64,000 bases of DNA, from the IMG/VR virus record IMGVR_UViG_3300028833_000071; one strand, 5' to 3'. Position 1 is the stretch's first letter, and the number at the start of each line of letters is the position of its first letter. A program made the translations under genes and the position numbers. The stretch is from a virus. Taxonomy: Duplodnaviria; Caudoviricetes. Positions 16,262-47,115 of the stretch are shown piece after piece. The notes under the pieces are model-generated. The model was given only the letters and a program-made list of their open reading frames with translations, had not been told where the DNA came from and did no database searches.

Positions 16262-17401
16262 ATGATTGCAGCGAACATAATAAGTGGCATACTACAACGA
16301 TACAAACAAATATGCGCCAAATACCCGCAATCCCCTTCGTTTATACCCAATACCAATGGTGACTCGTTTTATCTTGTAAGAGAAAGAGATGGGAATCGCC
16401 CTGTTCAAGTTCGTATTTCCAATCATGGCACATATCTTAGCAAATGGTGTGATAGGGAAGAATTGGGGAATAGTGTTGAAAGACTTGACCCTGCATTATG
16501 TGACAACATATCAATTGCTTTTATTGACGATGGTAATGATATAACCAAGGATTGCAAGGGAAGACAAGATTGTGAAGACTGCAATATTCAACCTTGCATA
16601 CCACAAACATTCGATGGACAGAATGAGTTGGGAAAACCGTTTAAAGTTATACAATACACCTATAAAAGCAGTCAAATTTCACCAAGGTATATCAACGGGC
16701 TTACCAAAGCTATTGCAGAAGCAAGTGTAAGCGGAAAGTATAACGACCCGTTGGCTAATCTTGTGAAAGCTGCAAAGAAAAAACCACTTTCATCATCAGA
16801 AAATAACCAAGAAATAAAAGAGAATAAGAATAATAAATACAAGAAAATGAATAAGAAACAAGTAATTAGAATTAATGAAAATCAACTCAAACAGATAATA
16901 ATGGAATCTGTGAAAAATGTTATAAAAGAAACCAAGTTCCAAAGAGGATATTATAACATTACGGATGACATGTCTTTTAGAGACATACAAGACAGAATGC
17001 GCTATTTTGGTATAGAAGGTGGAAGAATGGCAGAACCTAATTATCTACCGAAACAATGGATTAAGAAACGTCTACGCCCTAAGGATACAGAATATGTATA
17101 TAATGTTGAAAATCTAATTGATAAGCCAAATATTGTGTCAGTTCTTGACACTGGTACTGATACTTTTTTTGGTGTTGATAAAGACGGTAATATTTATGGT
17201 AATGGGAATCCTGATGAATGTATTGGTAATTTGAACACTGATAAGATATATGGAACAGGATGTTTTGGTGATTATTGTTGGTTGATAGTGTATAAAGATG
17301 AAAAACAAGCTTTGTTTGATTACAGAGGAATTATATGTTACGGTAAAGTGATTCAATTAGATAACGGAACGTATTTCTTTGCAACTAAGCAGCGCACTTA
17401 A
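16262..17401 (+). CDS. putative internal virion protein with internal IRINENQL..ESV peptide
   Basis: Late motif at 16237; VRISNHG N-domain; MNKKQVIRINENQLKQIIMESVKNVIKE at 16847. Confidence 0.75.
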   Translation: MIAANIISGILQRYKQICAKYPQSPSFIPNTNGDSFYLVRERDGNRPVQVRISNHGTYLSKWCDREELGNSVERLDPALCDNISIAFIDDGNDITKDCKGRQDCEDCNIQPCIPQTFDGQNELGKPFKVIQYTYKSSQISPRYINGLTKAIAEASVSGKYNDPLANLVKAAKKKPLSSSENNQEIKENKNNKYKKMNKKQVIRINENQLKQIIMESVKNVIKETKFQRGYYNITDDMSFRDIQDRMRYFGIEGGRMAEPNYLPKQWIKKRLRPKDTEYVYNVENLIDKPNIVSVLDTGTDTFFGVDKDGNIYGNGNPDECIGNLNTDKIYGTGCFGDYCWLIVYKDEKQALFDYRGIICYGKVIQLDNGTYFFATKQRT

Positions 17402-17597
17402 CGGTTTTCACGTCCTCAAACGTCACCACATTAAGGGCTCGTTCCATAAGGACGGCAAATCTTTCACCACCCTTTAATCCACGGTTGTTGTACCTGAAGA
17501 CGGCTTCGTCAACATAACGCTGCATGTACTTGCGTGAAACGTAGTGGTATGTCCCGTACACCATACGCTTGAACTGTCCCCAAAAGCCTTCAATCGT
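17385..17597 (-). pseudogene. IS1595 (ISXO2-like) transposase C-terminal fragment
   Basis: Translates TIEGFWGQFKRMVYGTYHYVSRKYMQRYVDEAVFRYNNR..., the IS1595 C-terminal signature; no start. Confidence 0.85.
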
Positions 17598-17656
17598 GGG
17601 AGTATGTCAGAAAAAAAAAGTACAAAGAAACAACTATTTATAATAAAAATTAATAT

Positions 17657-19213
17657 ATGGGCAAATATAATTCATATTTAGATGTTGAGCCTCAAATAGA
17701 AAATACCAAGGACGGTACTAAGAAAAAGATTAATTTTTGGGGTATTAAAGATAGACAAGACGCAGAAAATATATTAGATGCAATTACTGAACCTGGCGAT
17801 AGTACATTTGCAAGAAAAGGTTTACCTGGTAAAAATATTTTAAGAGCATGGTATACGCCTTCAAGAACTAATATGGGCCTTTTTGTGGTTGTTGCAAATG
17901 AAGCAGTTGAAGATTTTATAAATACAGGCTTAAGAAGCATAATATTTTCATTGCTTAAAAGTAATAATTATGATAAAGAAAAAATAGCAAATCTTGAGCA
18001 TGAAGTTGCACATAAGTTGGAAACAAGTGATAGTTGGGCTGATAAAAGGAAAGCATTGGCAGACGCTGATGTTCATGTTGCTGACCTTTGGCAACGATAT
18101 TTAAATAACATAAATGACCCTGTTACAAGAGAAGCCCTTAAACTATATTCTCAAATTTATACAACAACATCATATGGCCATGCTTTAAGTTTGGCTAATG
18201 TTATGCGTATTAGGGCTATTAACCCCGATGCAACATTTGTACTTTCAGAAACAGTATGGAATTCGTGGGGCTATGGCATTAAAAGAGGTGCTAAAAAATA
18301 TCCTTTATGGGCTGTTCGTTTTACACAAGGAATATCAAAAAAGGATTTGGAAAATGCAAAAGCAAAACTTGGCCATGAACTTGAACAATTAGGTGATTTA
18401 GGCGTTGCTGTTCAAGAAGCAATCCGTATTGAAGCAGAAAAAGAGGCTAATAAAGGTTTGAAACCTATGTTTATACTATATTATGGTTATGATATTGCAG
18501 ATACATATCAATATAATTCCAAAGAGGTAAGTCCTTTGATGTCAAAACCGAATATTTCAAGTAATGTTGTATATAAGTTAAATGCTTTGGCACAAAAACT
18601 TGAAGATGAGAAGGAAAAAGGCTTAGGCGAAAAAGAAAAAGAAATAAGGGATACAACTGACATGAAATATAATGTTGCTTCTGAAACAATGATAAATTTA
18701 TGCGAAAAAAACGGTATTAAAACAGAAGATATAGTTAACAATAGTACCTCTAACCAAAAAAAATTAATAAATTTATTAGATGCCTATTATAATTATATAA
18801 TAAATGCATCTTCAAATAAAAAGAGCCCGAATAAAATCAATGTTTTAAAACCTGAAAATATTCAAAATTATATTCAAGATGCAATTCAATTAACATTATT
18901 AATGAATAGCATTCCATTTAACAAGAATGATTTTACACATTCGGAAATATATAATCAAAACGAAGCGGCAACACTCGGCCCAATTATTAGAACAGCAGCT
19001 GAAGCGATTGGTAAAGCATTGAACCCTAAACAAAAAGATAATGTTAATGAGGGTATTTTTGAAGAAGGTGCATTTGGTTTATCATTTGACGAAGCATTGA
19101 AAAAACTTGGTATTAAAGTAGTTTCCGACAATACGCCTGAAATGCAAATGGAGGCAATCAAAGAGAATTTCAATAAAATGTTAAATAGAATTAATAATCC
19201 TATAATTTATTGA
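17657..19213 (+). CDS. large protein with ArdC-like (DUF1738) ssDNA-binding domain, putative virion-delivered
   Basis: SLANVMRIRAINPDATFV....W..WG..IKRGAK; late motif at 17633. Confidence 0.65.
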   Translation: MGKYNSYLDVEPQIENTKDGTKKKINFWGIKDRQDAENILDAITEPGDSTFARKGLPGKNILRAWYTPSRTNMGLFVVVANEAVEDFINTGLRSIIFSLLKSNNYDKEKIANLEHEVAHKLETSDSWADKRKALADADVHVADLWQRYLNNINDPVTREALKLYSQIYTTTSYGHALSLANVMRIRAINPDATFVLSETVWNSWGYGIKRGAKKYPLWAVRFTQGISKKDLENAKAKLGHELEQLGDLGVAVQEAIRIEAEKEANKGLKPMFILYYGYDIADTYQYNSKEVSPLMSKPNISSNVVYKLNALAQKLEDEKEKGLGEKEKEIRDTTDMKYNVASETMINLCEKNGIKTEDIVNNSTSNQKKLINLLDAYYNYIINASSNKKSPNKINVLKPENIQNYIQDAIQLTLLMNSIPFNKNDFTHSEIYNQNEAATLGPIIRTAAEAIGKALNPKQKDNVNEGIFEEGAFGLSFDEALKKLGIKVVSDNTPEMQMEAIKENFNKMLNRINNPIIY

Positions 19214-19220
19214 AGATATT

Positions 19221-20276
19221 ATGATAACTGAAGAACGCATAAAAAAGATTATAAATGAGGTGATTAGTGAATATTGTGTCGATGAGAGCGGTGAAGATTT
19301 TGGCGTTAATGTTAAAGGTGATTTAACAATTGATGACATTAAACAAGGTGAAAAACTTTATCATAGGCCTAATGATTCTTCGGACAGCAATCCGCTTTCA
19401 GTTATTAATAGTTTAATGAAATACGGTTTTAGTAGAGAGTATACAGGTAGTAACGGAGGAAATATGTATGGGCCCGGTGTTTATAATGTCTATTCTCTTC
19501 GCTCTTCAAATGACAGGGCGACAGGATATGGTAGATACATAGTGCAATCATATTTATTAGGCGGTTATAAAGATTTTCTGATTTTTAATATTGATATGGC
19601 AAAAAGAATTTATGGAGAAGAATGGCCGATAATCAATCAGATAAAAATGTTAATGCCTGAAAAATTGACACAAAGGGTTTTAAATAACATTAGAGGCTTG
19701 GGCAGTTGTATGAATACCAATAAAACAAGTTATGATATAAAAACATCAGTAACAGCTAAAAAAATTGTTGATTTATTGGGCCCTGATATTGCTAAAACAA
19801 AAATTAGGGGGATTATTTATTCAGGCGGTCATGACGGTGATTGCTGTTTCGTTAGAAATTTTTCAGATGTTGTTCCATATAGTTATTCAAAAGATAACGG
19901 TAGAACATGGACTGTTGGTATAACAGATGAACTTATTTGGAGGGCGGGTCATAATACCGATGTAGAGGCCATAATAAAAAATCGTGTTGATGATAAAGGT
20001 AGAAAAATGTTTTCAGATACTGCGGAAAGAAGTATCAATGGTTTTGTAAGAGTTTATAAGAACAACAAAATGAACTACTTTGAAGTTGCGACAAATAAAC
20101 TAATATCTGATGTATGGTTTGATTTTGGTGAAGAGTTTGAAGACGATGATACAACGAAAGTAGTTTATAATGGGGCTAAATATACTTTAATGAAAAATGA
20201 AGACGGCAGATTTATAGTTTATGATGAAGATGATTGTCCTCTTTGTTATTTGGAAGATTTGCCTGAAAATATTTAA
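19221..20276 (+). CDS. putative ADP-ribosyltransferase-fold protein with N-terminal tag peptide
   Basis: LYHR...GFS....GGNMYGPGVY resembles PARP/ART motif; MITEERIKKIINEVISE leader. Confidence 0.55.
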   Translation: MITEERIKKIINEVISEYCVDESGEDFGVNVKGDLTIDDIKQGEKLYHRPNDSSDSNPLSVINSLMKYGFSREYTGSNGGNMYGPGVYNVYSLRSSNDRATGYGRYIVQSYLLGGYKDFLIFNIDMAKRIYGEEWPIINQIKMLMPEKLTQRVLNNIRGLGSCMNTNKTSYDIKTSVTAKKIVDLLGPDIAKTKIRGIIYSGGHDGDCCFVRNFSDVVPYSYSKDNGRTWTVGITDELIWRAGHNTDVEAIIKNRVDDKGRKMFSDTAERSINGFVRVYKNNKMNYFEVATNKLISDVWFDFGEEFEDDDTTKVVYNGAKYTLMKNEDGRFIVYDEDDCPLCYLEDLPENI

Positions 20277-20299
20277 ATAAAATTTTAAATTATTTTAAG

Positions 20300-21064
20300 A
20301 TGCAACTAACATACGATGATATACAATATTTAGTATTAGAATCAGTAAATAAAATCCTTTGTGAGAAAAAAAGCCTTATAGATAATTTTGATTTTGTTTC
20401 CAATATTCTTGATATTAATTCGCCTGATGACTTTCATTTTGTACAAATTATAAAAAGGTTCAAAGATAATCAAGGCGATGATAGAAGCAAGGGAAATTAT
20501 CATGGTGGTGCTTGGTATTTAGGTGGTTTTAGAGTTCACAATGCACAAGAGTTAATGGCTTTAAAACCTAAAATAATATCAATATGTGATAAAAATAATG
20601 CAAGGGCTTATATTACAATAAACAATCGTTCAGATAAAGAAACTGATAGTTATATAAAGGTCTATAGAAGACAATTTAAACCAACAGACGCAAGATATAT
20701 CCATGCAGACGAAATAGTACCAGGACAGGCAAAAGACGGCCCTAATTGGGTAGGAAAAAGAAAACGTCTTATCATCGACATAGATGTTCCAAAAGGCACA
20801 AAAACAAAAGAAGGTGATAATCTTTGGGATGAAGTGAAAGATATGATTGAAATGACAGGGATTAAACCATTAGGTGAATATGTAACACCAAGTGGAGGTC
20901 TTCATATTCTTTTACCTGATAAAGAAGATAAAAGATTTGTTTATCTTAAACAATTGTTCAAAAAATTTGATAATTGGAAAGATAAAGGAAGACTTGCTAC
21001 AGTTCATCCAAATGTTGATGCAAAGATAATTTTATATTCAAATGTTCAAACGGCAGGATATTAA
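20300..21064 (+). CDS. putative AEP/prim-pol-like protein with N-terminal tag peptide
   Basis: LIIDID and TPSGGLHI motifs; MQLTYDDIQYLVLESVNKILCE leader. Confidence 0.55.
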   Translation: MQLTYDDIQYLVLESVNKILCEKKSLIDNFDFVSNILDINSPDDFHFVQIIKRFKDNQGDDRSKGNYHGGAWYLGGFRVHNAQELMALKPKIISICDKNNARAYITINNRSDKETDSYIKVYRRQFKPTDARYIHADEIVPGQAKDGPNWVGKRKRLIIDIDVPKGTKTKEGDNLWDEVKDMIEMTGIKPLGEYVTPSGGLHILLPDKEDKRFVYLKQLFKKFDNWKDKGRLATVHPNVDAKIILYSNVQTAGY

Positions 21065-21101
21065 ATAAGATAAGGGTGACTATTTTCGCCACCCCATTTT
21101 T

Positions 21102-21464
21102 TTAACAATATTCTCCGACAAGTTTTCTTACCTTAATACCGTTTTCATCATCTTGAAAACCATATACCTCAATAAATGAATCTGTTGCAGAAGACCATTT
21201 CCCATGTTTTTTTGAAACTTGCAACATATCGGCTGTAAATTGTACTTCTTCAACATCATCAAGATTATTTGCATTCAAGTAGTCAATACATAATTGGACC
21301 ATTTGTTCCTGAAGTTCTTTTACATTTTCTTTTGTCGTTGTCGGATTTTCATAATTTTCACATGTCCAATCTGGCCAATGTGTCCTAACTCTTTTTACAA
21401 ATTCTTGTTTTTCATCATTTGAAAGATTAATAAAATCTTCAGCCAATTGTTTTACTTTTTCCAT
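21102..21464 (-). CDS. hypothetical protein
   Basis: 120-aa ORF at end of minus-strand operon. Confidence 0.7.
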   Translation of the reverse strand: MEKVKQLAEDFINLSNDEKQEFVKRVRTHWPDWTCENYENPTTTKENVKELQEQMVQLCIDYLNANNLDDVEEVQFTADMLQVSKKHGKWSSATDSFIEVYGFQDDENGIKVRKLVGEYC

Positions 21465-21467
21465 GAC

Positions 21468-22280
21468 TTATCGTTTTAAAATAGTTTCATTAAATTCGAT
21501 GATAGTTCTAAACATATCAGTTTCTTTTTGTGTCTTTAGTTTATTTTTGAATTGTTCCATAATAAAATGTGGTAATCCAAAATATGGTTCAGCAATACTA
21601 CAAGCCATTGCTGCTATCGTATCTGTATCTCCACCAATCCAAATTGATTTTCTGATACAATCAATAAAATCATTGCTATTTAAGAAACATATAATGGCCT
21701 CAGGTACAGTTATTTGACAAGTCGCATCAAATTTATGTACAAAAGTTCCAATTTCATTTAGAGGTAATGATAAATTATAATCAAAATCCTCTTCAATAAT
21801 GCGTTTTATGTCTGCTTTACCTGCGCCACTTCTTGCGAGGAATATTGCTTCAGCAATCGCTTGTGCACCTTTTATACCCTCTTCATGGTTATGTGTTACC
21901 TCGGCTGATTTTTTAGCCAAATCAAGACATTCTTCAAGTGTATTGGCAAAAAAAGCACAAGGTGATACTCTCATTCCTGACCCATTTCCGAAACTGTTTA
22001 TAGGCTCAGTGGAATCACTTAAAACCCATGTTTTAAATCTGCCACCATATCCAGCATCAGGATAGTTTGTTGCCCAATCTTTAAGAATGCCGGGCAATTC
22101 TTCAACTGATTTACCATTAGTCCTATTAAGCCACTCCATAATAGCAACGGTAAGCACAGAATCATCTGTGAACTTACCGTCTTTTAAAATTTCAATGCTG
22201 TCGGGACTATTTTCATGTGGATTACGCCACTCGTAAATTGAGCCGCAATAATCACCAATTAAAGCGCCTATATATTGCAT
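21468..22280 (-). CDS. ADP-ribosylglycohydrolase (DraG/ARH family)
   Basis: GALIGD..GS.YE, FTDDS, SFGNGSGMRVSP, THNH, GGDTDT. Confidence 0.93.
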   Translation of the reverse strand: MQYIGALIGDYCGSIYEWRNPHENSPDSIEILKDGKFTDDSVLTVAIMEWLNRTNGKSVEELPGILKDWATNYPDAGYGGRFKTWVLSDSTEPINSFGNGSGMRVSPCAFFANTLEECLDLAKKSAEVTHNHEEGIKGAQAIAEAIFLARSGAGKADIKRIIEEDFDYNLSLPLNEIGTFVHKFDATCQITVPEAIICFLNSNDFIDCIRKSIWIGGDTDTIAAMACSIAEPYFGLPHFIMEQFKNKLKTQKETDMFRTIIEFNETILKR

Positions 22281-22837
22281 TAGATACGATTGATTTTAAT
22301 CTTTATTACTTTATCACCACTTAGGGTAGTAGTATCATTAGCACATTTATGTGTACAAGGTTTACTTTCATTAGTATTTGATGGCTTACTCTTATTAGTA
22401 TTTGAAGTAAAACGGCCTTTATTATCTCTTGGCTGTGTCTTTGCCTTATTGACTGAAATAAAATTCTTTTCAATATAGTCTTCATTATGCTTACACACAT
22501 TTTTTGCTTTATTAATGAATCTATTAGCGCCTGTTATAAACTTCAAAGCATCATTTTTAGCTGCTATAACTTCAGTTCTTACTTTCCAATAAAGTTTGCT
22601 TTCAGCTCGTGCCAGTGCAATTTTCTTACCAATTTCAACATCAAATATGTCGTTCTTGTCGCACTTTGCATAACCAGTGGCAAACATTCTGAAATTATCC
22701 ATGAAACGGTTACCGCTAAGTCCATTAGGTGTAACAACATCACCTTGCAAATAACATTTTACTGTCTTTGTCTCGTTATCAACAAAAAAATAAGGCTTTT
22801 TTGTGAATCTAATCTTGAAATCATCTCTATACTTCAT
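22280..22837 (-). CDS. hypothetical phage protein
   Basis: GYAKC...D.FD.EIGKKIALARAE motif; C-terminal PRDNKGRF. Confidence 0.75.
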   Translation of the reverse strand: MKYRDDFKIRFTKKPYFFVDNETKTVKCYLQGDVVTPNGLSGNRFMDNFRMFATGYAKCDKNDIFDVEIGKKIALARAESKLYWKVRTEVIAAKNDALKFITGANRFINKAKNVCKHNEDYIEKNFISVNKAKTQPRDNKGRFTSNTNKSKPSNTNESKPCTHKCANDTTTLSGDKVIKIKINRI

Positions 22838-22903
22838 AGTAATTAAATTTTTAAATTAAACAATTATTTTTCTTTTCTAAAAAATATACAAATAAATTTT
22901 TAT

Positions 22904-23719: not shown

Positions 23720-24095
23720 TGTTATTTCTTTTTTCTTCAATTAAACTTTTAACATGACTCATTTGGTCAAGAGTATTTTTTATAGTGTTGTACTTTTCCA
23801 AATATTTAAATGCTTTTCCGATTAATCCGCTATAAAAATCAAGGTATTTTTCCAAAAAATAATCTTCAGCTTTGTCTAAATCTAAAAAATATATATCAAA
23901 AGAATTCTTCCCAAGAAGGAAAGGCTCTATATGAAAAGATTTTCTTTCGTTATCAATAAAAAATAACATTGAGCCATCACTATAAATATGAATATTTGTA
24001 ATACTAATAGTTTCAATCCTAAGTCCATATTCTTTATGCTCCGTAACAGCATAAACTTTATCGCCAATTTTTAAATCTTTAAAACACATAATCAT
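23706..24095 (-). CDS. hypothetical protein
   Basis: 129-aa ORF, FKDLKIGDKVY start. Confidence 0.7.
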   Translation of the reverse strand: MIMCFKDLKIGDKVYAVTEHKEYGLRIETISITNIHIYSDGSMLFFIDNERKSFHIEPFLLGKNSFDIYFLDLDKAEDYFLEKYLDFYSGLIGKAFKYLEKYNTIKNTLDQMSHVKSLIEEKRNNNGDA

Positions 24096-38985: not shown

Positions 38986-40560
38986 TTATGATAAATAGTT
39001 TTTTATTGCACAATAATTAATAACTCCTGAGTATATTTTAAATGATTTAATATCACCGATAAATGTTCCACAAAAATCTTGTTCAATAGGCCATGGATTT
39101 CTTACTTCAGGTCCTTCAAGTGAGAATAAATACTCTAATAAGCCGATAGAACCACCGCCGAGAGATATGTTATATGGAACACCTTCTTGCTTTTGACTGA
39201 TTTCATCAAGTTCTTTAAATGAAAGCGCATTGAGTTCTCTGCTTATGAATTTCAAAAAGCCGTTGACATATATCATTATTCTCATTTTTCTTGTTCTGTT
39301 GTCGCATTTGTTATCGGTTGGGTTTATAATTAAGAATCTAACATTGATTGAATTCCATTCATTGTCTTTTATCATTCCTGGTTTGGAATACTCTTCAATT
39401 ACACTATAATGGTTTTCGGCATCACAGTCCAATACGCCATATTTATATCCTATGGCACCTTCAGGTGTTACCCTTAAAGCAAAAACATTGTTTTTAACAT
39501 CTTTCAATATGTTATTAACGATTTCTTCCATGATTTCTTCTTCGGTTTTACCCTCCAGTTCATCTATGTTTTCAATTAATTCGTCAATATTATTAATTGT
39601 AAAACCTGTTTCGGTCCTGTTAAGCCATGGAAAATAATTAATATTTTTTCTCTTTTTCCCCTTAACTCGTATTCTTGTACCTTCAATCCAATTATTAACA
39701 GTAAAGCCTGTTTTGGTACGGTTAAACATTAGAAACTTATTATCTGAATCATTGATAATATATTCCGTTTGCTCATCTATTGGATTACCATCAGAGTCGG
39801 TATATGGCGGGGTTATTGTAGAACAACTTTCAGCATCATTGTTGTAATAGCCATCGTCAAAATAATTTTCATCTTTAGGCGGTAATGGTAAAGTTTCTTC
39901 GCCTGAGTATAACTTCCAAAATTTATTTTCAGCTCTTGTACCGAGATAGAAGAAAATACCTGAGTTATCTGTATGTGTATTGTTTACCGAGTTTTCAGCA
40001 ATTTCATAATCACTTCTTGGCCTTAAATCAAAATGCAAAACAATATCATTGACAATCTTATCAGGAAATACTTGATAATCATATCCATGAAGTTTGAAAA
40101 AGCCTTGATAAAAGCCACCTTTAAATGACATATATTTCTTATCACCATCAGTAACTAATTCAGTATCATAAGAATATAGCTTAGTATTGCTTTCAATCGG
40201 CGATAAAAACATTCTTGTATCACCTGATTCAATTTTATATGTTGATTTAAGAAATATATTGAGAAAATCATCATCTGTTATGCGGTCCTTGTCAAAATGA
40301 ATAAAACCATTATCAATGCCCGTCATACCAATATTATTCATTTCAACACCATTGTTTGTTGAACCACTCCACTCTATAGATGAATACCATTTACCATCAT
40401 CAAATGAAAAGTCGGAAAAATCGGCAATTACCATGTCATTTAAATCCCCACTACACCCACAAAATGTCTCACCTTTGTAAATCATAAAATCATAATAATG
40501 CTGATTGTATAACTTAGAGTCTAATTGCTTGTCATATTTATTTTTAATGTTTTGATGCAT
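38986..40560 (-). CDS. putative virion structural protein (ConA/LamG-like)
   Basis: GGFYQGFFK, GIFFYLGTRAENKF, MIYVNG, QEGVPYNISLGGG, FIGDI; late motif at 40592. Confidence 0.7.
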   Translation of the reverse strand: MHQNIKNKYDKQLDSKLYNQHYYDFMIYKGETFCGCSGDLNDMVIADFSDFSFDDGKWYSSIEWSGSTNNGVEMNNIGMTGIDNGFIHFDKDRITDDDFLNIFLKSTYKIESGDTRMFLSPIESNTKLYSYDTELVTDGDKKYMSFKGGFYQGFFKLHGYDYQVFPDKIVNDIVLHFDLRPRSDYEIAENSVNNTHTDNSGIFFYLGTRAENKFWKLYSGEETLPLPPKDENYFDDGYYNNDAESCSTITPPYTDSDGNPIDEQTEYIINDSDNKFLMFNRTKTGFTVNNWIEGTRIRVKGKKRKNINYFPWLNRTETGFTINNIDELIENIDELEGKTEEEIMEEIVNNILKDVKNNVFALRVTPEGAIGYKYGVLDCDAENHYSVIEEYSKPGMIKDNEWNSINVRFLIINPTDNKCDNRTRKMRIMIYVNGFLKFISRELNALSFKELDEISQKQEGVPYNISLGGGSIGLLEYLFSLEGPEVRNPWPIEQDFCGTFIGDIKSFKIYSGVINYCAIKNYLS

Positions 40561-40620
40561 TACCGTATTTAAATTAAAAATTATTCCATTTATAAATAGT
40601 TTGGCTAATGCTTTTGTTTG

Positions 40621-40645
40621 AGCAATTCTATATCACTTAACATAA
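40621..40645 (+). repeat. degenerate IS1595-type TIR
   Basis: AGCAATTCTATATCACTTAACATAA resembles GACAATTATATACCAGTTAACACAA. Confidence 0.45.
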
Positions 40646-40744
40646 AAAAAGAAAAGCGTCCCAATCGGAACGCTTTCAGCGTATGTTTGAAACTTCAATC
40701 GGCTTGGTCAAACCGAATAGGGTGTTTGTGTTGTGCAGAGCGGC

Positions 40745-41275
40745 TTAAATACCCATATCCATAAGCTCACGGTTTGCACTTCCTTTACGATGTAAAAGAC
40801 GAGAATCTGCTTGCTTTCCGTATTTTGCAGCCTCTTTTTGGCGTTTCCATTGTTTATCAAATTTCTGTTTTAGTAATGTGAATGGGTCGTCTACATCAAC
40901 ATCCTGTACATATTGTTTTGCTTTTTTACGATAATCTTGAGTAAAATCAACGGAACTATCTTTAGGATGTCTAATTTCATATTCTTTTTCGAGAATCGAA
41001 AATCTATTAGATATGGCGTTGTAAATTTTAGTCCACGCATATTTGTCATAACCATATGAAGCTTCTAAGTCAGAAAACCAACCCATACCACTGTCGCCAA
41101 ATTCACATATTTCTGCATCGTAATCGCCATTTATAATTTGAGAGCAAAAATTATCTATGTGATTGTATTTGTTTTCTCTCAGCACTTTTTTCACAGATTC
41201 ATTGACGATTTGGTGTAATTGGCTTTCTGTAAGTCTAATAACTTGTTTTCTATTCATATTTTGAATTTTATTCAT
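40745..41275 (-). CDS. putative internal virion protein with N-terminal IRLTESQL peptide
   Basis: MNRKQVIRLTESQLHQIVNESVKKVLRE; late motif at 41288-41296 places the start at 41257-41287, not 41560. Confidence 0.75.
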   Translation of the reverse strand: MNKIQNMNRKQVIRLTESQLHQIVNESVKKVLRENKYNHIDNFCSQIINGDYDAEICEFGDSGMGWFSDLEASYGYDKYAWTKIYNAISNRFSILEKEYEIRHPKDSSVDFTQDYRKKAKQYVQDVDVDDPFTLLKQKFDKQWKRQKEAAKYGKQADSRLLHRKGSANRELMDMGI

Positions 41276-41359
41276 CTTATTTTTCATATAAATAGTATGA
41301 AGTTTTGAATTTTTCAGATTTTTTTCGTATATTAAAAAAGGACATTTAAAAATTAAGCG

Positions 41360-41953
41360 ATGTTTAAAAATTTGACTATTGGTATTGATGTTGACGGAGT
41401 TTTGAGGGATAATCTTCAAATCATGGTTGACTTGTATAACAAGGAGTTTAATAGTTCTATGACTGTTGACGATATAAAAGATTATCGGACAGAGGTAACA
41501 TTTCCATCCATAGAAACAACCACAGGAAAAACAGCAAGCGAATGGTTTTTTCAGGACCATTCCAAAGAAATATTCTTAAATGCAAGCCCATTTCCAAATG
41601 TAGCTGATGATATTAAGAAACTTAGAGAATATGCAAATGTTATTATTATAACATATCAAAAATCGTTTAAAAACAAGATGGAAACTCTATGTTGGCTTGA
41701 AAACAACGGGATAGAATATGACGGGATTATGTTTATAAAAGATAAAACAAGACTGTTGTGTGATTATTTGATTGACGACAATGATTGGAATTTTATTGAT
41801 TCCAATGCTACACACGCTATTTTAATTAATGCGCCATATAATAAAAACAAAACCGTTATAAATATGCTTAAAAATAGCGGTTGTGACGATATGAAAAGAT
41901 ATGATAGTTTTCACGAATTTGTTAATGATTTCTGCGAAGCACAAAAAATTTAA
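41360..41953 (+). CDS. 5'(3')-deoxyribonucleotidase, HAD/NT5C family
   Basis: IGIDVDGVL, IIT, WL, DK......LIDD, N.PYN. Confidence 0.88.
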   Translation: MFKNLTIGIDVDGVLRDNLQIMVDLYNKEFNSSMTVDDIKDYRTEVTFPSIETTTGKTASEWFFQDHSKEIFLNASPFPNVADDIKKLREYANVIIITYQKSFKNKMETLCWLENNGIEYDGIMFIKDKTRLLCDYLIDDNDWNFIDSNATHAILINAPYNKNKTVINMLKNSGCDDMKRYDSFHEFVNDFCEAQKI

Positions 41954-41958
41954 AAACA

Positions 41959-42918
41959 ATGGAAAACAATAAGTTAAGACAAAGATTCGTTAAGGATTAT
42001 AATCTACCCATCAATGTATTTGATGAAAAAATTTTCAATTATTATTCAAATCTTTATGATTTTTTCCCAAAAGATAAATGGGAGAATTTAAAAACAATGA
42101 TTGACGAGAAATATGATGGCAATGTTGAGAAGTGGCTTGAATATTGCGCTTCAGTAAGAGATAATGCCATTTATGGGGTTATTGAAACAGATAAGTATAA
42201 GGAGTTTAATAATTGTGATTTATCTCAATATAAAGTATCTTCTGTTGTTGGTGAGCATAGTTGTTATACCAATGAGACTGATGGTTGTCTTTTTGTTTCA
42301 ATTGATTTAAAGAAAGCAAATTTTCAGGCATTGAAGTATGTTGGTGTGCTTGATGATGAAGATTATGACCATTTTATTGAAAAGTATGATGGTGATGATT
42401 ATATAAAGGGAAGCAAATACCTAAGACAGGTTATATTTGGCAAGATGAATCCTGGCCGAACTATAACAGTTGAAAAATATATAATGGGAAAGATAATGCC
42501 AATTGCTGATGAAATATTACCATTTGACTTTAAATTATATTTATATTCCCAAAATAGTGATGAACTTGTATATAAGCAGTCTGATACATGGATATATCCC
42601 GATAAACTAAAAGAATTTTGTGAAAAAATTGAGGAAAGAGTTTTAAATGAACTTAACATTGAAGTTCGTGCTGAATACATTAAGGTTACAAAATTACCAA
42701 TAGTTAATATAAATGGTAATAATGTTGATGCATTTGTCCGTGAGAATTTAATTACCAATGAGAAAGTTCTCAAAAAGGCTTCAACAACATTTTATCCACA
42801 GATATATAAATTATGGAAAAATCTTGCAATTGAGGATAATGACCTTATATTTTACTTTGAAGACCAATTAGCACATTTTAATAATAAATTAATAAAAATC
42901 AATAATGGAAACAAATAA
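41959..42918 (+). CDS. conserved jumbo-phage hypothetical protein
   Basis: RFVKDYNLPI, SIDLKKANF, SKYLRQVIFG, SDE motifs (polymerase-palm-like acidic residues). Confidence 0.75.
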   Translation: MENNKLRQRFVKDYNLPINVFDEKIFNYYSNLYDFFPKDKWENLKTMIDEKYDGNVEKWLEYCASVRDNAIYGVIETDKYKEFNNCDLSQYKVSSVVGEHSCYTNETDGCLFVSIDLKKANFQALKYVGVLDDEDYDHFIEKYDGDDYIKGSKYLRQVIFGKMNPGRTITVEKYIMGKIMPIADEILPFDFKLYLYSQNSDELVYKQSDTWIYPDKLKEFCEKIEERVLNELNIEVRAEYIKVTKLPIVNINGNNVDAFVRENLITNEKVLKKASTTFYPQIYKLWKNLAIEDNDLIFYFEDQLAHFNNKLIKINNGNK

Positions 42919-43193
42919 TGACATAATAAAAAACGATGAAGGAAATAGGATTACTTGACGATTTATTTTTTGTTTATGGTGAAAAAGGTTTTAAATATAA
43001 GCATTGTCGTACACCAAGAATGTATACTTATATTGAAGTTAATTTTATAAAACAGCAAAATTTTTTTTCTAAATTTCAAAATCCATGTAGACGCGACAAG
43101 ACAAAAGTTAATTTGGTGATTGCAAAACAAAAAATTTAAAAAAATTGTATATTTAAGAAAAAAAATGTATATTAGTATAAAAAATAATTATTT

Positions 43194-44309
43194 ATGTTTA
43201 ACGAATTCAAAATTTTTAAAAACATTAATCTACCATTTGACAAATCAAGCACATATGGTGATGTCGATGGTATCTCATTACAAAATTTGTTTTATGCAAG
43301 GAATGGATGTTTTCCTGGGTGCTATCTGTTTGATTATGATTCAAGAACCAATGGTGATTATAAATTTAACACCAAGGAAATAGCGAAATATCTCTTGGAA
43401 AATACACCAAAAGATGAGGACATGGAATTTATTCCTTATTTTACTAATATTCTTGGCAGTAAAGATGATAAGACAAATTTCGGTTTTTGCATTATACTTA
43501 ACAAAAGTAATTTGTATGCAAGATTTGAAACTTCGGTGACTGAATCTTATATTTTGTTTGATAACAAGCATATTGACGAGCTAAATAGTTTTGTTGAACA
43601 CATTTTGCAGTTTTATATTGCTCCTGAGGAAGAGGAAAATAACATTTGGCGTTTGTGTCAAAGTTCTTCCGGATTTTATCTTGACAAGGGAAAAGTTAAG
43701 GTATATCAGAACTTCGATATACATAAGTTATATAATGACGGTTTTGAGACCGAAGATGAAAAAATCAGCAAGTTTATTGCAGAAGACGATAAATCGGGCC
43801 TTGTTATTCTTCATGGAGAAAAGGGTACGGGCAAAACCTCTTATATTAAACATCTTGTCAACTCTTATCCTAATAGGAAGTTCGTCTATGTACCTGCACA
43901 TATGATTAATATTTTGAGTGAACCTGCATTTGGCTCATTCCTTATAACATTAAATAACCATGTTATTGTGCTTGAGGATTGTGAAAACGCCATAAGAGAT
44001 AGACGTGCAAGTGGTTCAGCATCAGCAGTTTCCTTGCTGCTTAATATGACAGATGGATTGCTTTCTGATGACCTTGGAATTAAATTTATATGCACTTTCA
44101 ATGAAGATATGAAAAATATAGACCCAGCACTTTTAAGAAAGGGTAGATTGATGGCTAAATATGAGTTTAAGGAATTGGCTATTGATAAATCAGAAGCACT
44201 TCTTAGAGAGCGTGGTATCGAAACCAAACTTAATAAGCCCATTACACTTGCGGAAATATTCCATTATGGTGAGACTGATTATGAAACTTCTAAAAAACCA
44301 CTTATTTAA
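43194..44309 (+). CDS. AAA+ ATPase
   Basis: Walker A GEKGTGKT, Walker B VIVLEDCE, LLNMTDG, IDPALLRKGR. Confidence 0.92.
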   Translation: MFNEFKIFKNINLPFDKSSTYGDVDGISLQNLFYARNGCFPGCYLFDYDSRTNGDYKFNTKEIAKYLLENTPKDEDMEFIPYFTNILGSKDDKTNFGFCIILNKSNLYARFETSVTESYILFDNKHIDELNSFVEHILQFYIAPEEEENNIWRLCQSSSGFYLDKGKVKVYQNFDIHKLYNDGFETEDEKISKFIAEDDKSGLVILHGEKGTGKTSYIKHLVNSYPNRKFVYVPAHMINILSEPAFGSFLITLNNHVIVLEDCENAIRDRRASGSASAVSLLLNMTDGLLSDDLGIKFICTFNEDMKNIDPALLRKGRLMAKYEFKELAIDKSEALLRERGIETKLNKPITLAEIFHYGETDYETSKKPLI

Positions 44310-44312
44310 TAT

Positions 44313-44531
44313 ATGGCAAAGAAAGATTTAATTGTAGAAGAAGGTGTTGTCGTACAGGCACTTCCAAATGCAATGTTTAAAGTTGAACTCGACAGTGCTG
44401 AAATAACACTTTTATGTGTTATCAGTGGAAAAATTAGACAAAATTATATCCGAATATTGGAAGGTGATAGGGTCCGTGTTGAAATTTCTCCTTATGACCT
44501 TACAAGAGGACGTATAGTAGCAAGATTATAA
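44313..44531 (+). CDS. infA: translation initiation factor IF-1
   Basis: [16 protein letters not shown]...[31 protein letters not shown]. Confidence 0.97.
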
Positions 44532-44551
44532 TTTTAAAAAAAGTATAAAAT

Positions 44552-44938
44552 ATGTTAGAAAGTTTATTGAAATTATTTGAAAGGCACCAAAGTATGCCTG
44601 ATGGTTACGATGAGCAATTTGAAGATGATTTGGCTTCCGTATTTGGATTAAAGCCAATCCAGTTCTATATGCCATCAACAATTGGAGATTATAGTTTTAA
44701 AACTAAAGATGATGGCTATGAATTCTCAATGGCTGTCGGTTTAAAGGCTACCTCTGATAATGTCAAGATTGACCTTGATAAGAATAACAATCTTAGTGTT
44801 AAATATTCATTCAAGGATGACAATTCAGAACATATCACAAGTATAAAAAGAACGCTTCCGAAGGATGCTGACCTTGATACTCTTGATGCGGAAATTAGGC
44901 ACGGACAGTTGATTATTACAGTTAAACGCAATGCTTAA
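44552..44938 (+). CDS. small heat-shock protein (Hsp20)
   Basis: Alpha-crystallin C-terminus TLPKDAD...A....GQLIITV. Confidence 0.75.
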   Translation: MLESLLKLFERHQSMPDGYDEQFEDDLASVFGLKPIQFYMPSTIGDYSFKTKDDGYEFSMAVGLKATSDNVKIDLDKNNNLSVKYSFKDDNSEHITSIKRTLPKDADLDTLDAEIRHGQLIITVKRNA

Positions 44939-44944
44939 AAATGA

Positions 44945-44972
44945 AAAAGGGTGGCGAAATCGTCACCCTTTA
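44945..44972. terminator. intrinsic terminator
   Basis: AAAGGGTGGCG-aaat-CGTCACCCTTT between convergent operons. Confidence 0.7.
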
Positions 44973-44996
44973 TTTTTGACAATCTATTAGGTTTTA

Positions 44997-45785
44997 TTAA
45001 TAAAGTTCTATAACGACACTTCCATTACTTGTGTCGGCTTCTATAAATGTTCGTTCACTTTCAAGCGCTTGGGCTAACATTCTAACATTGATATAATTTT
45101 CAATTGTTTCTTTTGGCGCATTTTCAATATCACCATACATTTGGTTAATTATTTCTTCACCAAGGGCTTCGTCATCATCTTCATCAACGCCAAATTCTTG
45201 ATAAATACTTTCAGAGTCTTCATTATATGGGCCATCCCATGAACATTCACGCCCAAATCTTTCATAATCAAAATAGTATTCAAGATTACTAAAGCTTTCA
45301 GGCCCTGATTCGTCAAGATATTGATATACAACATCTTCAACACTATCACAATTATAATGGACGGTATAATCTTGATTATTTAATATATTCATTGCTTCAT
45401 TTGCATCGTCACAATAATCCGCAATGGCTTCTTTTATAGAATAATCTTCATCTATATTGATAAAATCCCAAAGTTCGTCTGAAATATAACTTTCACTAAT
45501 AAATCCTTCAGGGATATTTTCCCAGTCTTGGAACATTAATTCGGCATCTCTTTCATCTGCATGAAGCGTTTCTCTACAATATTCAAGAAATTCTTCTCTT
45601 GAGTCAAAATTATCAAGATTAACCCATTCGCCTTTTAATGAACCTGAATTATACTTTCCATAAGTACCCACATATACAGCAGGACTATCATTTGAAGCCC
45701 TATATTGTTCTTTCAATATTTTAACGGCACGTTTTACCATGTACCTTATGTCTTGCTCTGTGATTTGCATTTTATTGTTTTTCAT
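44997..45785 (-). CDS. ardA: antirestriction protein ArdA with N-terminal tag peptide
   Basis: VYVGTYGKYNSGSLKGEWVNL, ELMFQDWE.IP, YFDYE.FGR, very acidic; leader MQITEQDIRYMVKRAVKILKE. Confidence 0.88.
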   Translation of the reverse strand: MKNNKMQITEQDIRYMVKRAVKILKEQYRASNDSPAVYVGTYGKYNSGSLKGEWVNLDNFDSREEFLEYCRETLHADERDAELMFQDWENIPEGFISESYISDELWDFINIDEDYSIKEAIADYCDDANEAMNILNNQDYTVHYNCDSVEDVVYQYLDESGPESFSNLEYYFDYERFGRECSWDGPYNEDSESIYQEFGVDEDDDEALGEEIINQMYGDIENAPKETIENYINVRMLAQALESERTFIEADTSNGSVVIELY

Positions 45786-45786
45786 T

Positions 45787-46485
45787 TTATATTGCATTTA
45801 AATAATTTATTATTCCATCGACATGGGTCTTGATTACCATTTTACGGCCCTCATCCGAAAGTATGTATTTTAAATCTTCAATATTGTCATAGAAGAAATT
45901 TTCTGTTAATACAGCGGGGCAATTTGTGTTCTTTAAAATATAAAAATCGCTTTCCCAATCTTTATCACCATCGGATTTGTCGGTCCTTATTTTTAACCCC
46001 TTAAAGTTCTTTTCGGCTTCAGCATATAAATATTCAGCCAATTTATCGCTTTTTGTTGTGCCTTTTGTTGTATATGCAGACCATCCTCTTGCGTCTTTCC
46101 ATTCGCTTCCACTACCAGCAGCATTGGAATGTACTGAAACTAAGATAACCTTATCTTTACCGACTTGGGAACACATTTTGTTTACACGGTTCACACGTTC
46201 TTTTAATGAGATATCGTTATCTTCAGTTACAAGTAATCTGACATCATAACCCATTCCTTTTAGGCTATTATAAATCTCATTGGCTATTTCTCTATTCCAT
46301 TTGTATTCATAAAAATCCAATTCAGGTTTTATTCCTTTTGATGAATAAGGACTTCTTTTACCTGGGGTATCATTTCCATGACCATTGTCTATATATATAA
46401 CAGTTTCAGGTATATTGTTTGTGCTTTCAGGCATAATTTCATTGTTATTATCATTATTTTCTAAAGTGTTATCTTCTTCTTGCAT
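45787..46485 (-). CDS. N-acetylmuramoyl-L-alanine amidase (Amidase_3), endolysin-like
   Basis: IDNGHG.DTPGKRSP, EY.WNRE, LVSVHSNA, PAVLTENFF. Confidence 0.93.
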   Translation of the reverse strand: MQEEDNTLENNDNNNEIMPESTNNIPETVIYIDNGHGNDTPGKRSPYSSKGIKPELDFYEYKWNREIANEIYNSLKGMGYDVRLLVTEDNDISLKERVNRVNKMCSQVGKDKVILVSVHSNAAGSGSEWKDARGWSAYTTKGTTKSDKLAEYLYAEAEKNFKGLKIRTDKSDGDKDWESDFYILKNTNCPAVLTENFFYDNIEDLKYILSDEGRKMVIKTHVDGIINYLNAI

Positions 46486-46569
46486 ATTGTCAACATTTTC
46501 CTTTTGAATTTTTTTTTTAAAAAGATTAATTATATTTTCAAGTATTTTTTTTATTTTTAATTTTAATTA

Positions 46570-47115
46570 TCATTTTATCTTTCTTGAATTTTCTTTAATT
46601 AGTCTAACAGCCTTTTTAACCATATCATAAATATCATTTTCAGTTAAATGAATTTTTTTATTTTCATATAAGTCATCATCATCACGGTCATAAGGGTCAA
46701 AATCATAGTCACTATTATACTCATCACGTTCACCAGCAAGAAATTCCAAGTCAAAATCCATTAAATCTGCTATTTCACCATAAGTCTTACCATCAATTTT
46801 ATTTATTATGTCTTCATATATTATGTCTTCATAAGGGCCATCCTCATTTACAACAGAAATCTTTGTTATTTCGAAATCAAAATCACTATCATCCAACTCA
46901 AATTCAGCCGGATAAGCGTAATCATTTGAACTATAATTGCCTCGTCTTGTACAATACCAACTTGGACATTCAGTTACCTTATATTCAACATAATATGTAT
47001 GCAATTTACCTTGAGCTTCTATGCAACCTTCAGTATTACTAATACCGCGATTCTCTTTGGAATTTCTTAATGCTTCCTTTAAATCTTGTATTATATTTTC
47101 AAGTGTTTCTTTCAT
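46570..47115 (-). CDS. acidic putative internal virion protein with C-terminal tag peptide
   Basis: KKIHLTENDIYDMVKKAVRLIKE at C-terminus. Confidence 0.7.
   Translation of the reverse strand: MKETLENIIQDLKEALRNSKENRGISNTEGCIEAQGKLHTYYVEYKVTECPSWYCTRRGNYSSNDYAYPAEFELDDSDFDFEITKISVVNEDGPYEDIIYEDIINKIDGKTYGEIADLMDFDLEFLAGERDEYNSDYDFDPYDRDDDDLYENKKIHLTENDIYDMVKKAVRLIKENSRKIK

What the first reader, a model, noticed from the sequence alone, without database searches (positions are those of the whole stretch)
16847..46660. Shared ~25-aa peptide tags unrelated late proteins: candidate capsid-loading and protease-release signal for injected anti-defence cargo
Seen: KQVIRINENQLKQIIMESVKNVIKE (internal, 16262 gene), MITEERIKKIINEVISE (19221), MQLTYDDIQYLVLESVNKILCE (20300), KQVIRLTESQLHQIVNESVKKVLRE (40745), MQITEQDIRYMVKRAVKILKE (ArdA) and KKIHLTENDIYDMVKKAVRLIKE (C-terminal, 46570). 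All lie in ACTATTTAT-driven units. Cargo includes ArdA (a type I RM inhibitor), an ART-like and a prim-pol-like domain, with an ArdC-like gene in the same operon. Known: T4 internal proteins carry a capsid-targeting sequence cut after (I/L)-x-E by the prohead protease, and ArdA is useful only at DNA entry. Inference: a modular, position-independent packaging tag that lets the phage pre-load and inject counter-defence proteins.
Basis: partly seen in the sequence, partly recalled or inferred. Interest (0 to 1): 0.8.

Follow-up and report, generated by a model that had tools for sequence, protein, structure and literature searches.

The report
Shared head-loading tag on phage proteins
A large uncultured T4-like gut or rumen phage puts the same 20-27-residue helical tag on a dozen otherwise unrelated late proteins, including the anti-restriction protein ArdA; the tag most likely loads them into the phage head for injection and is then cut off, as phage T4 does with its internal proteins, but nothing has been measured.

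Summary
All six peptides lie at the stated coordinates. Five of the six match one profile strongly; the 19221 leader is a weak, short form. The 147-kb genome holds at least 13 long-form tags. Related 200-355-kb phages hold 2-35 each, by threshold, and about 5,350 protein clusters in public data carry it. No Pfam family, searched paper or GenBank phage has it.

The consensus is (M)NKKx-I-R-L-T-E-S-D-L-H-R-I-V-K-E-S-V-N-K-I-L-K-E. It is kept at amino-acid level, not DNA level, and ends in (L/I)-x-E in about 95% of copies. It occurs at N-termini, between domains and at C-termini.

The genome encodes a T4 gp21-type prohead protease. Its capsid protein keeps L-x-E|A at the propeptide boundary. Tagged genes share a promoter-like motif with head genes. 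Phage ArdA and ART-like orthologues carry interchangeable leaders that end in (L/I/M)-x-E just before the conserved domain; plasmid and bacterial ArdA have none.

Best reading (about 0.55): a long, position-independent analogue of the T4 capsid-targeting sequence. Packaging and cleavage are untested.

Caveats: one tag-bearing 317-kb phage has no detectable T4-type head genes; no (L/I)-x-E is enriched upstream of internal tags; the ArdC call is weak.

The scan has noted comparable tag systems in other jumbo phages. This is a new variant of a known kind.

The parts
16237..16245 (+). Promoter-like motif ACTATTTAT(A), 15 nt before the 16262 gene
   Evidence: The same motif precedes the portal, capsid and scaffold genes of this genome.
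16262..17401 (+). 379-aa protein: conserved ~190-aa N-terminal domain of unknown fold, a linker, an internal MNKK tag, and a hypervariable C-terminal part
   Evidence: At least 45 homologous clusters keep the N-domain and tag but have unrelated C-terminal parts after (L/I)-x-E.
16847..16930 (+). Internal long-form tag, MNKKQVIRINENQLKQIIMESVKNVIKE
   Evidence: E 1e-11 with the independent profile
17633..17641 (+). Promoter-like motif before the 17657 gene
17657..19213 (+). Untagged 518-aa protein, possibly ArdC-N-like (weak)
   Evidence: No Pfam or PHROG hit. Atlas leads to ArdcN clusters are below the trust thresholds.
19221..20276 (+). 351-aa protein: short leader MITEERIKKIINEVISE, a disordered linker, an ART-like domain (residues ~27-230) and a beta domain
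   Evidence: AF2 pLDDT 89, helix 4-18, pLDDT below 50 for residues 15-24. VIA Z 5.0-5.6 to many PARP and toxin ART folds. Orthologues have varied or absent leaders.
20300..21064 (+). 254-aa protein: tag MQLTYDDIQYLVLESVNKILCE followed by an AEP (prim-pol)-like domain
   Evidence: AF2 pLDDT 89, helix 5-20. The RepB' primase is the only full-length fold match (Z 7.6 and 7.0). The DIDVP and SGGLH motifs are invariant. Most relatives have this domain fused to the 19221-type domain.
41288..41296 (-). Promoter-like motif before the tagged gene that starts at 41257
40745..41257 (-). ~170-aa protein of unknown function with an N-terminal long-form tag (41174-41248); the true start is MNRKQV
   Evidence: E 1e-15
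44997..45797 (-). ArdA anti-restriction protein with an N-terminal tag MQITEQDIRYMVKRAVKILKE (45708-45770)
   Evidence: Pfam PF07275, E 1.4e-24. 41 of its 120 best homologues carry a tag (profile E<=0.02), all among the 43 closest; canonical 160-180-aa ArdA have none.
45787..46485 (-). N-acetylmuramoyl-L-alanine amidase in the same operon, untagged
   Evidence: Pfam PF01520, E 4.8e-27
46570..47115 (-). Very acidic 181-aa protein (pI 4.3) with a C-terminal tag KKIHLTENDIYDMVKKAVRLIKE (46591-46659), preceded by LYE-NKK
47135..48553 (-). First gene of the ArdA operon, 472 aa, function unknown
48581..48589 (-). Promoter-like motif that heads the 48553 to 44997 operon

Best explanation
The peptide is a capsid-targeting tag. 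It is a long (about 20-27 residue) amphipathic helix that works like the 10-20 residue capsid-targeting sequence (CTS) of phage T4 internal proteins.

Proposed mechanism:
1. Tagged proteins are made late, together with the head proteins.
2. The helix docks them onto the scaffolding core inside the assembling prohead.
3. The gp21-type, Glu-specific prohead protease cuts after the (L/I)-x-E that ends the tag, and probably also after the L-T-E at its start. This frees the cargo domain inside the head.
4. The cargo is injected with the DNA. Cargo here includes ArdA, an InPase domain, an ART-like enzyme, an AEP primase-like enzyme and many small proteins of unknown function.

Shown: the tag, its modularity, protein-level selection on it, its conserved Glu sites, the protease gene, and the shared promoter-like motif.
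Inferred: docking, cleavage, packaging and injection.
For: 1. The tag is real and widespread.
- 5,350 clusters at E<=1e-3.
- 10-32 copies in each of five jumbo phages at E<=0.01.
- 2-8 copies at E<=1e-4 in five further large contigs with a related protease.

2. Selection acts on the protein, not the DNA. More than half of the identical residues between tags of one genome use different codons.

3. The ends match the protease motif. The tag ends in Glu in 203 of 211 copies, with L or I at P3 in 202. It starts with (L/I)-x-E in 200 of 211. T4 gp21 cuts Alt at ITE-6 and LTE-619 and removes 10-20-residue CTS leaders (PMC5694885).

4. The head machinery is T4-type.
- PF03420 protease, 100 bits; gp23-type capsid protein; portal and TerL.
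- The capsid protein keeps L-[LIM]-x-E|AT near residue 60 in five phages.

5. Orthologous cargo carries swappable leaders.
- Phage ArdA and the ART-like protein have several leader types, all ending in (L/I/M)-x-E a few residues before the conserved domain. Plasmid and bacterial ArdA and some fused orthologues have no leader.
- In AF2 models the tag is a separate helix followed by a linker: pLDDT below 50 in the 19221 model, lower confidence (block mean 63) in the 20300 model.

6. Tagged genes share the motif [ACGT]TATTTAT[AT] with capsid, scaffold, protease and portal genes.
- 12 of 17 tagged against 55 of 444 other genes in G002 (p=1e-7).
- 13 of 30 against 50 of 404 in G003 (p=6.5e-5).

7. 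Tagged genes sit inside head modules, for example directly after the protease gene in G002. The scaffold N-termini of G000 and G002 carry a half-tag ending in L-x-E.

8. The cargo types match virion-delivered polyvalent proteins (PMC5512222): InPase PF18823 at E 2e-47 and ArdA.
Against: - There is no virion proteomics, no cleavage data and no cultured relative. GenBank phages have no such tag.
- One tag-bearing 317-kb phage (G005) has no detectable gp21-type protease, portal or TerL related to this clade.
- About half of all tags are internal or C-terminal, and many proteins carry two or three. Natural T4 CTSs are N-terminal.
- (L/I)-x-E is not enriched upstream of internal tags (15% against 26% background). 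E-[SN]-[KR] is enriched there instead.
- The tag has no sequence similarity to the T4 CTS.
- The likeness to the scaffold is a post-hoc 9-residue regex match. The profile does not hit the scaffold, and the G003 scaffold does not match the regex.
- In G000 the promoter-motif enrichment is not significant on its own (p=0.07).
Confidence: 0.55

Rival explanations
1. The helix is a general docking or address tag read by another phage-encoded hub, not the prohead core. Candidates are a chaperone, a replication or membrane compartment, or the tail or baseplate. The conserved Glu residues would then be contact residues and not cleavage sites.
For: - The tag is position-independent and often present in several copies.
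- It occurs in G005, which lacks detectable T4-type head genes.
- Tag consensus is partly genome-specific, as expected for co-evolution with any receptor.
Against: - No candidate hub was identified.
- Tagged genes share the head-gene promoter motif and sit in head modules.
- The match of both tag ends to the gp21-type motif would be a coincidence.
- The ArdA and InPase cargo fit delivery with the DNA (PMC5512222).
Confidence: 0.2
2. The helix is a self-associating coiled-coil module. It oligomerises or cross-links small proteins, for example into an inner body or condensate, and has no targeting or cleavage role.
For: - It is an amphipathic helix with a hydrophobic stripe at L6, I9, V10, V14, V17 and L18.
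- Proteins with two or three tags could cross-link.
Against: - It does not explain why monomeric enzymes and ArdA acquire it only in phages.
- It does not explain why the tag always stops at (L/I)-x-E before a flexible linker.
- It does not explain why alternative leader types on the same cargo also end in L-x-E.
Confidence: 0.1
3. The shared sequence is mainly a recombination or expression cassette (promoter, 5'UTR and first codons) that spreads between genes. The peptide would have no function of its own, or would be the recognition leader of a modifying enzyme.
For: - Free-standing tagged genes share promoter and 5'UTR (z 3.4-7.5).
- Tagged cassettes ride on IS1595 elements in this genome, according to earlier notes of this scan that were not rechecked here.
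Against: - More than 50% of conserved residues use different codons.
- The tag is kept at internal and C-terminal positions that have no promoter.
- It is conserved across phages whose capsid proteins are only 68% identical.
- The neighbourhoods read here showed no recurrent neighbouring enzyme, but this was not tested systematically.
Confidence: 0.07

Closest known systems
Capsid-targeting sequence (CTS) of phage T4 internal proteins IPI, IPII and IPIII, Alt and gp24, removed by the gp21 prohead protease (Mullaney and Black 1996; reviewed in PMC3012670, PMC5694885, PMC12373910)
   Same: - A short leader is shared by otherwise unrelated, hypervariable, non-essential late proteins of a T4-type phage.
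- The leader ends in (L/I)-x-E.
- A gp21-family protease gene is present.
- The cargo includes anti-restriction and ART-type proteins.
- T4 Alt also loses a C-terminal propeptide at LTE-619.
   Different: - The tag is two to three times longer and has no sequence similarity to MKTYQEFIAE.
- It has three conserved Glu residues.
- It occurs internally, C-terminally and in two or three copies per protein.
- There are 10-35 tagged genes per genome, against 3-10 in T-even phages.
- The hosts are probably Bacteroidales.
- Function is untested.
Polyvalent proteins of phages and conjugative elements (Iyer, Burroughs, Anand, de Souza, Aravind 2017; PMC5512222)
   Same: The domain repertoire overlaps: ArdA, InPase, SprT/MPTase-like zincin, ART-like, prim-pol-like and possibly ArdC-N. 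These are thought to be delivered together with the DNA.
   Different: Here most domains are separate small proteins, each with its own tag, and not one giant polypeptide processed by its own metallopeptidase. In relatives the ART-like and AEP-like domains are fused, with linkers that carry L-x-E.
Long propeptides of ejection proteins in phiKZ/SPN3US-type giant phages, cut by a gp21-related protease at (S/A/G)-x-E (PMC5694885)
   Same: A Glu-P1 prohead protease, many processed internal head proteins, multiple cleavage sites within one propeptide, and jumbo genomes.
   Different: Those propeptides are over 100 residues long and are paralogue-specific. They are not one short tag shared across unrelated proteins.
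Other CTS-like tag systems noted by this scan in uncultured jumbo phages (e1-5340821, e1-5949540, e1-5688131)
   Same: Dozens of unrelated late proteins share a short leader that ends in the head-protease motif.
   Different: Those tags have other sequences and are shorter (7-14 residues). They were reported as N-terminal only. None was checked here.

Membership tests
T4-type CTS / internal-protein system | One leader shared by otherwise unrelated proteins of the phage | tested here: met
   13 long-form tags in G000, and 19 and 35 profile hits in G002 and G003. The tagged bodies are unrelated: 53 of 54 have no Pfam domain.
T4-type CTS / internal-protein system | The leader ends in the prohead-protease motif (L/I)-x-E | tested here: met
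   Glu at the last position in 203 of 211 copies; L or I at P3 in 202 of 211.
T4-type CTS / internal-protein system | The phage encodes a gp21-family (Peptidase_S77) prohead protease and a gp23-type capsid protein | tested here: met
   PF03420 at 100.5 bits and PF07068 at 205.8 bits in G000. The protease is also present in G001-G004 and G006-G010. It was not found in tag-bearing G005.
T4-type CTS / internal-protein system | The leader is N-terminal | tested here: not met
   110 copies are N-terminal against 101 internal or C-terminal in the top 149 proteins.
T4-type CTS / internal-protein system | Sequence homology to the T4 CTS | tested here: not met
   No resemblance beyond the terminal (L/I)-x-E. 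tblastn with the tag consensus found nothing in 50,697 GenBank phage records, T-even phages included.
T4-type CTS / internal-protein system | The proteins are packaged in the head, cleaved by the protease and injected | not testable with these tools
T4-type CTS / internal-protein system | Expressed together with head genes (late) | tested here: inconclusive
   The shared promoter-like motif is enriched on tagged genes in G002 and G003 (p=1e-7 and 6.5e-5) but not significantly in G000 (p=0.07). The timing of expression is inferred only.
ArdA (PF07275) | Match to the ArdA profile above the curated cut-off | tested here: met
   E 1.4e-24, 87.9 bits against a cut-off of 27, residues 41-191.
Polyvalent proteins (Iyer et al. 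2017) | Several conflict domains in one polypeptide | tested here: not met
   The ArdA, InPase, ART-like and AEP-like domains are on separate proteins in this genome. The ART-like and AEP-like domains are fused in relatives.
Polyvalent proteins (Iyer et al. 2017) | Characteristic domain repertoire (InPase, ArdA, MPTase/SprT, ART, Primpol, ArdC-N) | tested here: met
   InPase PF18823 at E 2e-47, SprT-like at E 9e-9 and ArdA. ART, Primpol and ArdC-N have fold-level or lead-level support only.
ADP-ribosyltransferase fold | Structural match of the catalytic domain | tested here: inconclusive
   More than 20 ART, PARP and toxin chains at Z 4.7-5.6, rmsd 3.4-5.7 over 113-135 residues covering residues 25-231. 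No Pfam or PDB sequence hit.
Archaeo-eukaryotic primase (prim-pol) superfamily | AEP fold with the DxD and sGxH motifs | tested here: inconclusive
   RepB' primase at Z 7.6 and 7.0 over 132-135 residues is the only full-length match. LigD polymerase domain by Foldseek at E 0.03-0.06. D160, D162, G199, G200 and H202 are at least 90% conserved. Assigning them to the AEP motifs rests on my own knowledge.
ArdC N-terminal domain (PF08401) | Profile or fold match | tested here: inconclusive
   No Pfam hit at E<=1. Atlas feature scores are 0.83-0.87 and TM 0.27-0.31 to ArdcN clusters, below the trust thresholds.

The most novel reading that the evidence does not exclude
A large clade of uncultured gut and rumen jumbo phages uses one cleavable, position-independent helical tag to load 10-35 different effectors per genome into the head. 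This works as a 'split polyvalent protein' system.
- Multi-tag precursors are cut at Glu sites into several injected effectors.
- Cargo is swapped behind the tag. Examples are the conserved N-domain + tag + hypervariable C-terminus family, the ART-like/AEP-like fusion and split forms, and the IS1595-borne cassettes.
- The tag would mark thousands of unknown proteins as candidate injected counter-defence factors.
Probability: 0.35. Interest if true: 0.8.

Novelty: new variant of a known kind. Interest (0 to 1): 0.62.

Why it matters
If the tag really directs head loading, a simple profile search would list the injected proteins of uncultured jumbo phages of Bacteroidales-rich gut and rumen communities. 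That is thousands of small proteins with no annotation, and a rich place to look for new anti-defence factors.

ArdA delivered as protein rather than expressed early would be, to my knowledge, a new delivery route for a classic type I restriction inhibitor.

A longer tag that works at either end or in the middle could also serve as a packaging signal for engineered phage particles.

The idea that a phage spreads the domains of a polyvalent protein over separately tagged modules would link the T4 internal-protein concept with the polyvalent-protein concept.

Tried and rejected
- **Upstream (L/I)-x-E as a general release site.** All four internal or C-terminal tags in this genome have one upstream. 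Across 101 such tags it is not enriched (15% against 26% background); E-[SN]-[KRH] is (53% against 5%).
- **Internal linkers as former 5'UTRs.** They are not significantly similar (z<=1.3).
- **Scaffold protein as a significant profile match to the tag.** It is not hit. Only a 9-residue half-tag regex matches, in G000 and G002.
- **Pfam, PHROGs and PDB-sequence searches of the cargo.** Nothing was found for 16262, 17657, 19221, 20300, 40745 or 46570, except phrog_14949 (unknown function) for 20300.
- **Foldseek against PDB.** No clear match for either model.
- **Atlas search of the 16262 N-domain.** Uninformative.
- **Literature search for motif strings.** No paper holds them.
- **Megablast of 20 kb of the window against GenBank phages.** No match.
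- **Classifying G005.** phmmer, tblastn and a PHROG scan of 128 ORFs did not reveal its head genes.
- **First related-loci run with the 11-sequence alignment.** It failed because no stretch was conserved enough. A 5-sequence alignment worked.

Full report
**1. Where the window lies.** The window is bases 50118-114117 of a 147,462-bp IMG/VR virus record that CheckV rates 41% complete. G+C is about 31%. No GenBank phage resembles it at the DNA level.

Outside the window the record holds a T4-type head module:
- a gp21-family prohead protease (PF03420, 100.5 bits, genome 19311-20027, minus strand);
- a gp23-type major capsid protein (PF07068, 205.8 bits);
- portal and large terminase genes;
- an acidic scaffold-like protein between the protease and capsid genes.

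Relatives in IMG/VR are 200-355-kb contigs, mostly from rumen-type samples, and two have terminal repeats. Their capsid proteins are 68-83% identical to this one. The phage is therefore an uncultured T4-like jumbo phage of about 350 kb.

**2. The observation.** All six quoted peptides translate at the stated coordinates. A profile built from them finds seven further ORFs in the same genome at E 1e-5 to 1e-7, plus weaker short forms. A loose regex gives 16 hits against 0.26 in shuffled proteomes.

Searching a profile of 11 tags against 1.84 billion cluster representatives gave 5,350 proteins at E<=1e-3 and 106 at E<=1e-10. Among the best 149 (excluding one 4,271-residue protein with 17 matched stretches), 43 have one tag, 100 have two and 6 have three. 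A regex count gives 110 N-terminal and 101 internal or C-terminal copies.

With an independent profile built from 253 of those foreign tags:
- the 16262, 40745, 46570 and ArdA tags remain significant;
- the 20300 tag is marginal;
- the 19221 leader is not significant and belongs to a shorter form, (V/I)ILTExQ(L/I)xxxI(S/x)E. That form also heads an InPase protein, a glucosaminidase and two head-module proteins.

Only 11 Pfam families were hit among the 149 proteins, the commonest in 4 of them, and none covers the tag itself. No searched paper contains the motif strings. GenBank phages gave one weak hit only.

**3. Anatomy of the tag.** The consensus is (M)NKKx-I-R-L-T-E-S-D-L-H-R-I-V-K-E-S-V-N-K-I-L-K-E.
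- Near-invariant positions are E3, L6, E12, S13, V14, L18 and E20.
- The first three residues form (L/I)-x-E in 200 of 211 copies and the last three in 195 of 211. Glu is the last residue in 203 of 211.
- Conservation stops right after the last Glu.
- In AF2 models of two tagged proteins (pLDDT 89 each) the tag is a separate helix. In the 19221 model a linker with pLDDT below 50 follows it; in the 20300 model the segment after the helix has lower confidence (block mean 63).
- Between tags of one genome, 52-60% of identical residues use different codons. Selection therefore acts on the peptide, not on a DNA repeat.
- Each genome has its own flavour of tag. Within-genome similarity exceeds between-genome similarity (permutation 0 of 2000), mainly because of G003.

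**4. Link to the head.** Tagged genes carry the motif [ACGT]TATTTAT[AT] about 15-55 nt upstream far more often than other genes in G002 and G003 (p=1e-7 and 6.5e-5). In G000 the difference is not significant (p=0.07), partly because several tagged genes lie inside operons.

The same motif precedes the capsid, scaffold, protease or portal genes.

Tagged genes are interspersed in head modules; in G002 one follows the protease gene directly. The capsid protein keeps L-[LIM]-x-E|AT about 17 residues before the conserved FPI(V/I)RRVF block in five phages. As I recall it, this corresponds to the gp23 propeptide boundary of T4.

A 9-residue half-tag pattern occurs 11-13 times per genome against 0.3-0.6 expected. 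Its few non-tag hits include the scaffold N-terminus of G000 and G002, each followed by an acidic run. This is post hoc, and the full profile does not hit the scaffold.

**5. Comparative evidence for a removable leader.** Among the 120 best ArdA homologues, 41 carry a tag by profile (E<=0.02), and all 41 are among the 43 closest. The tags come in several flavours, and each ends in (L/I/M)-x-E five to twelve residues before the conserved VYVGTYGKYN. A further group has quite different leaders that also end in L-x-E. Canonical 160-180-aa bacterial and plasmid ArdA start at the domain itself.

Orthologues of the 19221 protein likewise have varied, short or absent leaders before the conserved DFGxNVKG. 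Most are fused to a 20300-type domain through linkers that carry L-x-E sites or partial tags. In this genome the two halves are separate genes, and the 20300 tag sits exactly at the split.

The 16262 protein belongs to a family with a conserved ~190-aa N-domain, a linker, an MNKK tag and an unrelated C-terminal part in each member.

**6. The cargo.**
- ArdA is certain.
- The protein at genome 30737-31354 is an InPase domain (E 2e-47). In PHROGs it matches pieces of DarB-like and virion proteins. [quoted passage not shown]
- 20300 is AEP (prim-pol)-like. The RepB' primase is the only full-length fold match (Z 7.6). The conserved residues DIDVP and SGGLH fit AEP motifs I and II, by my own knowledge.
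- 19221 has weak but consistent ART-fold matches (Z about 5-5.6).
- 17657 is untagged, and its ArdC likeness is only a sub-threshold lead.
- Of 54 other long-form tagged proteins in three genomes, one has a Pfam domain.

'Anti-defence cargo' is therefore documented for ArdA and plausible for the rest.

**7. What is known.** In T4, all internal head proteins join the scaffolding core through a 10-20-residue CTS. gp21 removes it from the IPs, Alt and gp24. Alt is cut at ITE-6 and also loses a C-terminal piece at LTE-619 (PMC5694885). T-even internal proteins are a diverse set of anti-restriction proteins that share only the CTS (PMC3012670; PMC12373910).

The present system has the same logic and the same protease family. 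It differs in several ways:
- tag length and sequence;
- three conserved Glu residues;
- positional freedom and several copies per protein;
- the number of tagged genes;
- the host group.

**8. Caveats.**
- Nothing shows packaging or cleavage.
- G005 (317 kb, 95% complete) has 11-12 canonical tags. It has no detectable gp21-type protease, portal or terminase related to this clade, and only scattered capsid-like fragments.
- Upstream of internal tags the enriched motif is E-[SN]-[KR], not (L/I)-x-E.
- All nine large contigs with a related protease do carry tags. Smaller or more distant contigs were too fragmentary to judge.

**9. Verdict.** It is a new variant of a known kind. Earlier notes of this scan describe comparable tag systems in other jumbo phages, and in other windows of this genome. 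I did not rely on them as evidence.

Noticed in passing
window 16262-17401 and homologues P0252-P0299: This is a family with a conserved ~190-aa N-terminal domain of unknown fold, a linker that keeps an in-frame MNKK, the tag, and then a completely different C-terminal part in each member. The layout resembles polymorphic-toxin or effector proteins. One member comes from a Muribaculaceae MAG.
   Followed up: partly
window 19221-21064; P0163-P0243: The ART-like and AEP primase-like proteins are one fused 575-610-aa protein in most relatives. In this genome they are split into two genes, and a fresh tag sits at the split point.
   Followed up: partly
G005 (L082-L097): This 317-kb, ~95% complete phage has 11-12 canonical tags. 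It has no detectable T4-type protease, portal, terminase or scaffold. Three capsid-like fragments lie at about 174.7, 211.5 and 284.1 kb.
   Followed up: partly
genome-wide, e.g. window 16237-16245: The promoter-like core TATTTATA on the coding strand is the exact reverse complement of the T4 late-promoter consensus TATAAATA (consensus from my own knowledge). The free-standing tagged genes also share about 30 nt of 5'UTR after it.
   Followed up: partly
L012:91-1583 (genome coordinates, outside the window): A transposase-like ORF lies back to back with a tagged ORF whose upstream reading frame matches the truncated N-domain of a family seen in P0068. Earlier notes of the scan call this an IS1595 cargo transposon.
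   Followed up: no
window 45787-46485 (-): An Amidase_3 peptidoglycan hydrolase sits in the ArdA operon. It has a low-complexity N-terminal stretch that ends in NIPE, which could be another processed leader.
   Followed up: no
window 46570-47115 (-): The C-terminally tagged protein is extremely acidic (45 D+E, pI 4.3), like the DNA mimics ArdA and Ocr. It may be a second DNA-mimic inhibitor.
   Followed up: no
L013:4899-6488:- and L013:11356-12366:- (genome 24899-26488 and 31356-32366): One head-module protein has a short-form leader, an HExxH zincin-like motif and a weak nucleotidyltransferase match. A SprT-like zincin gene lies next to the InPase gene. Both domain types are typical of polyvalent proteins.
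   Followed up: partly
G001 and G002 protease genes (L036, L037; G002 265809-267632): In two relatives the prohead protease is the N-terminal part of a ~607-622-aa ORF with a long C-terminal extension. In G000 and G004 it is a 236-238-aa protein.
   Followed up: no
window 59677-60903 (-) (genome 109794-111020): A 408-aa ORF with a TnpB/OrfB-like N-terminus (judged by eye, not tested) is preceded by the same promoter-like motif.
   Followed up: no
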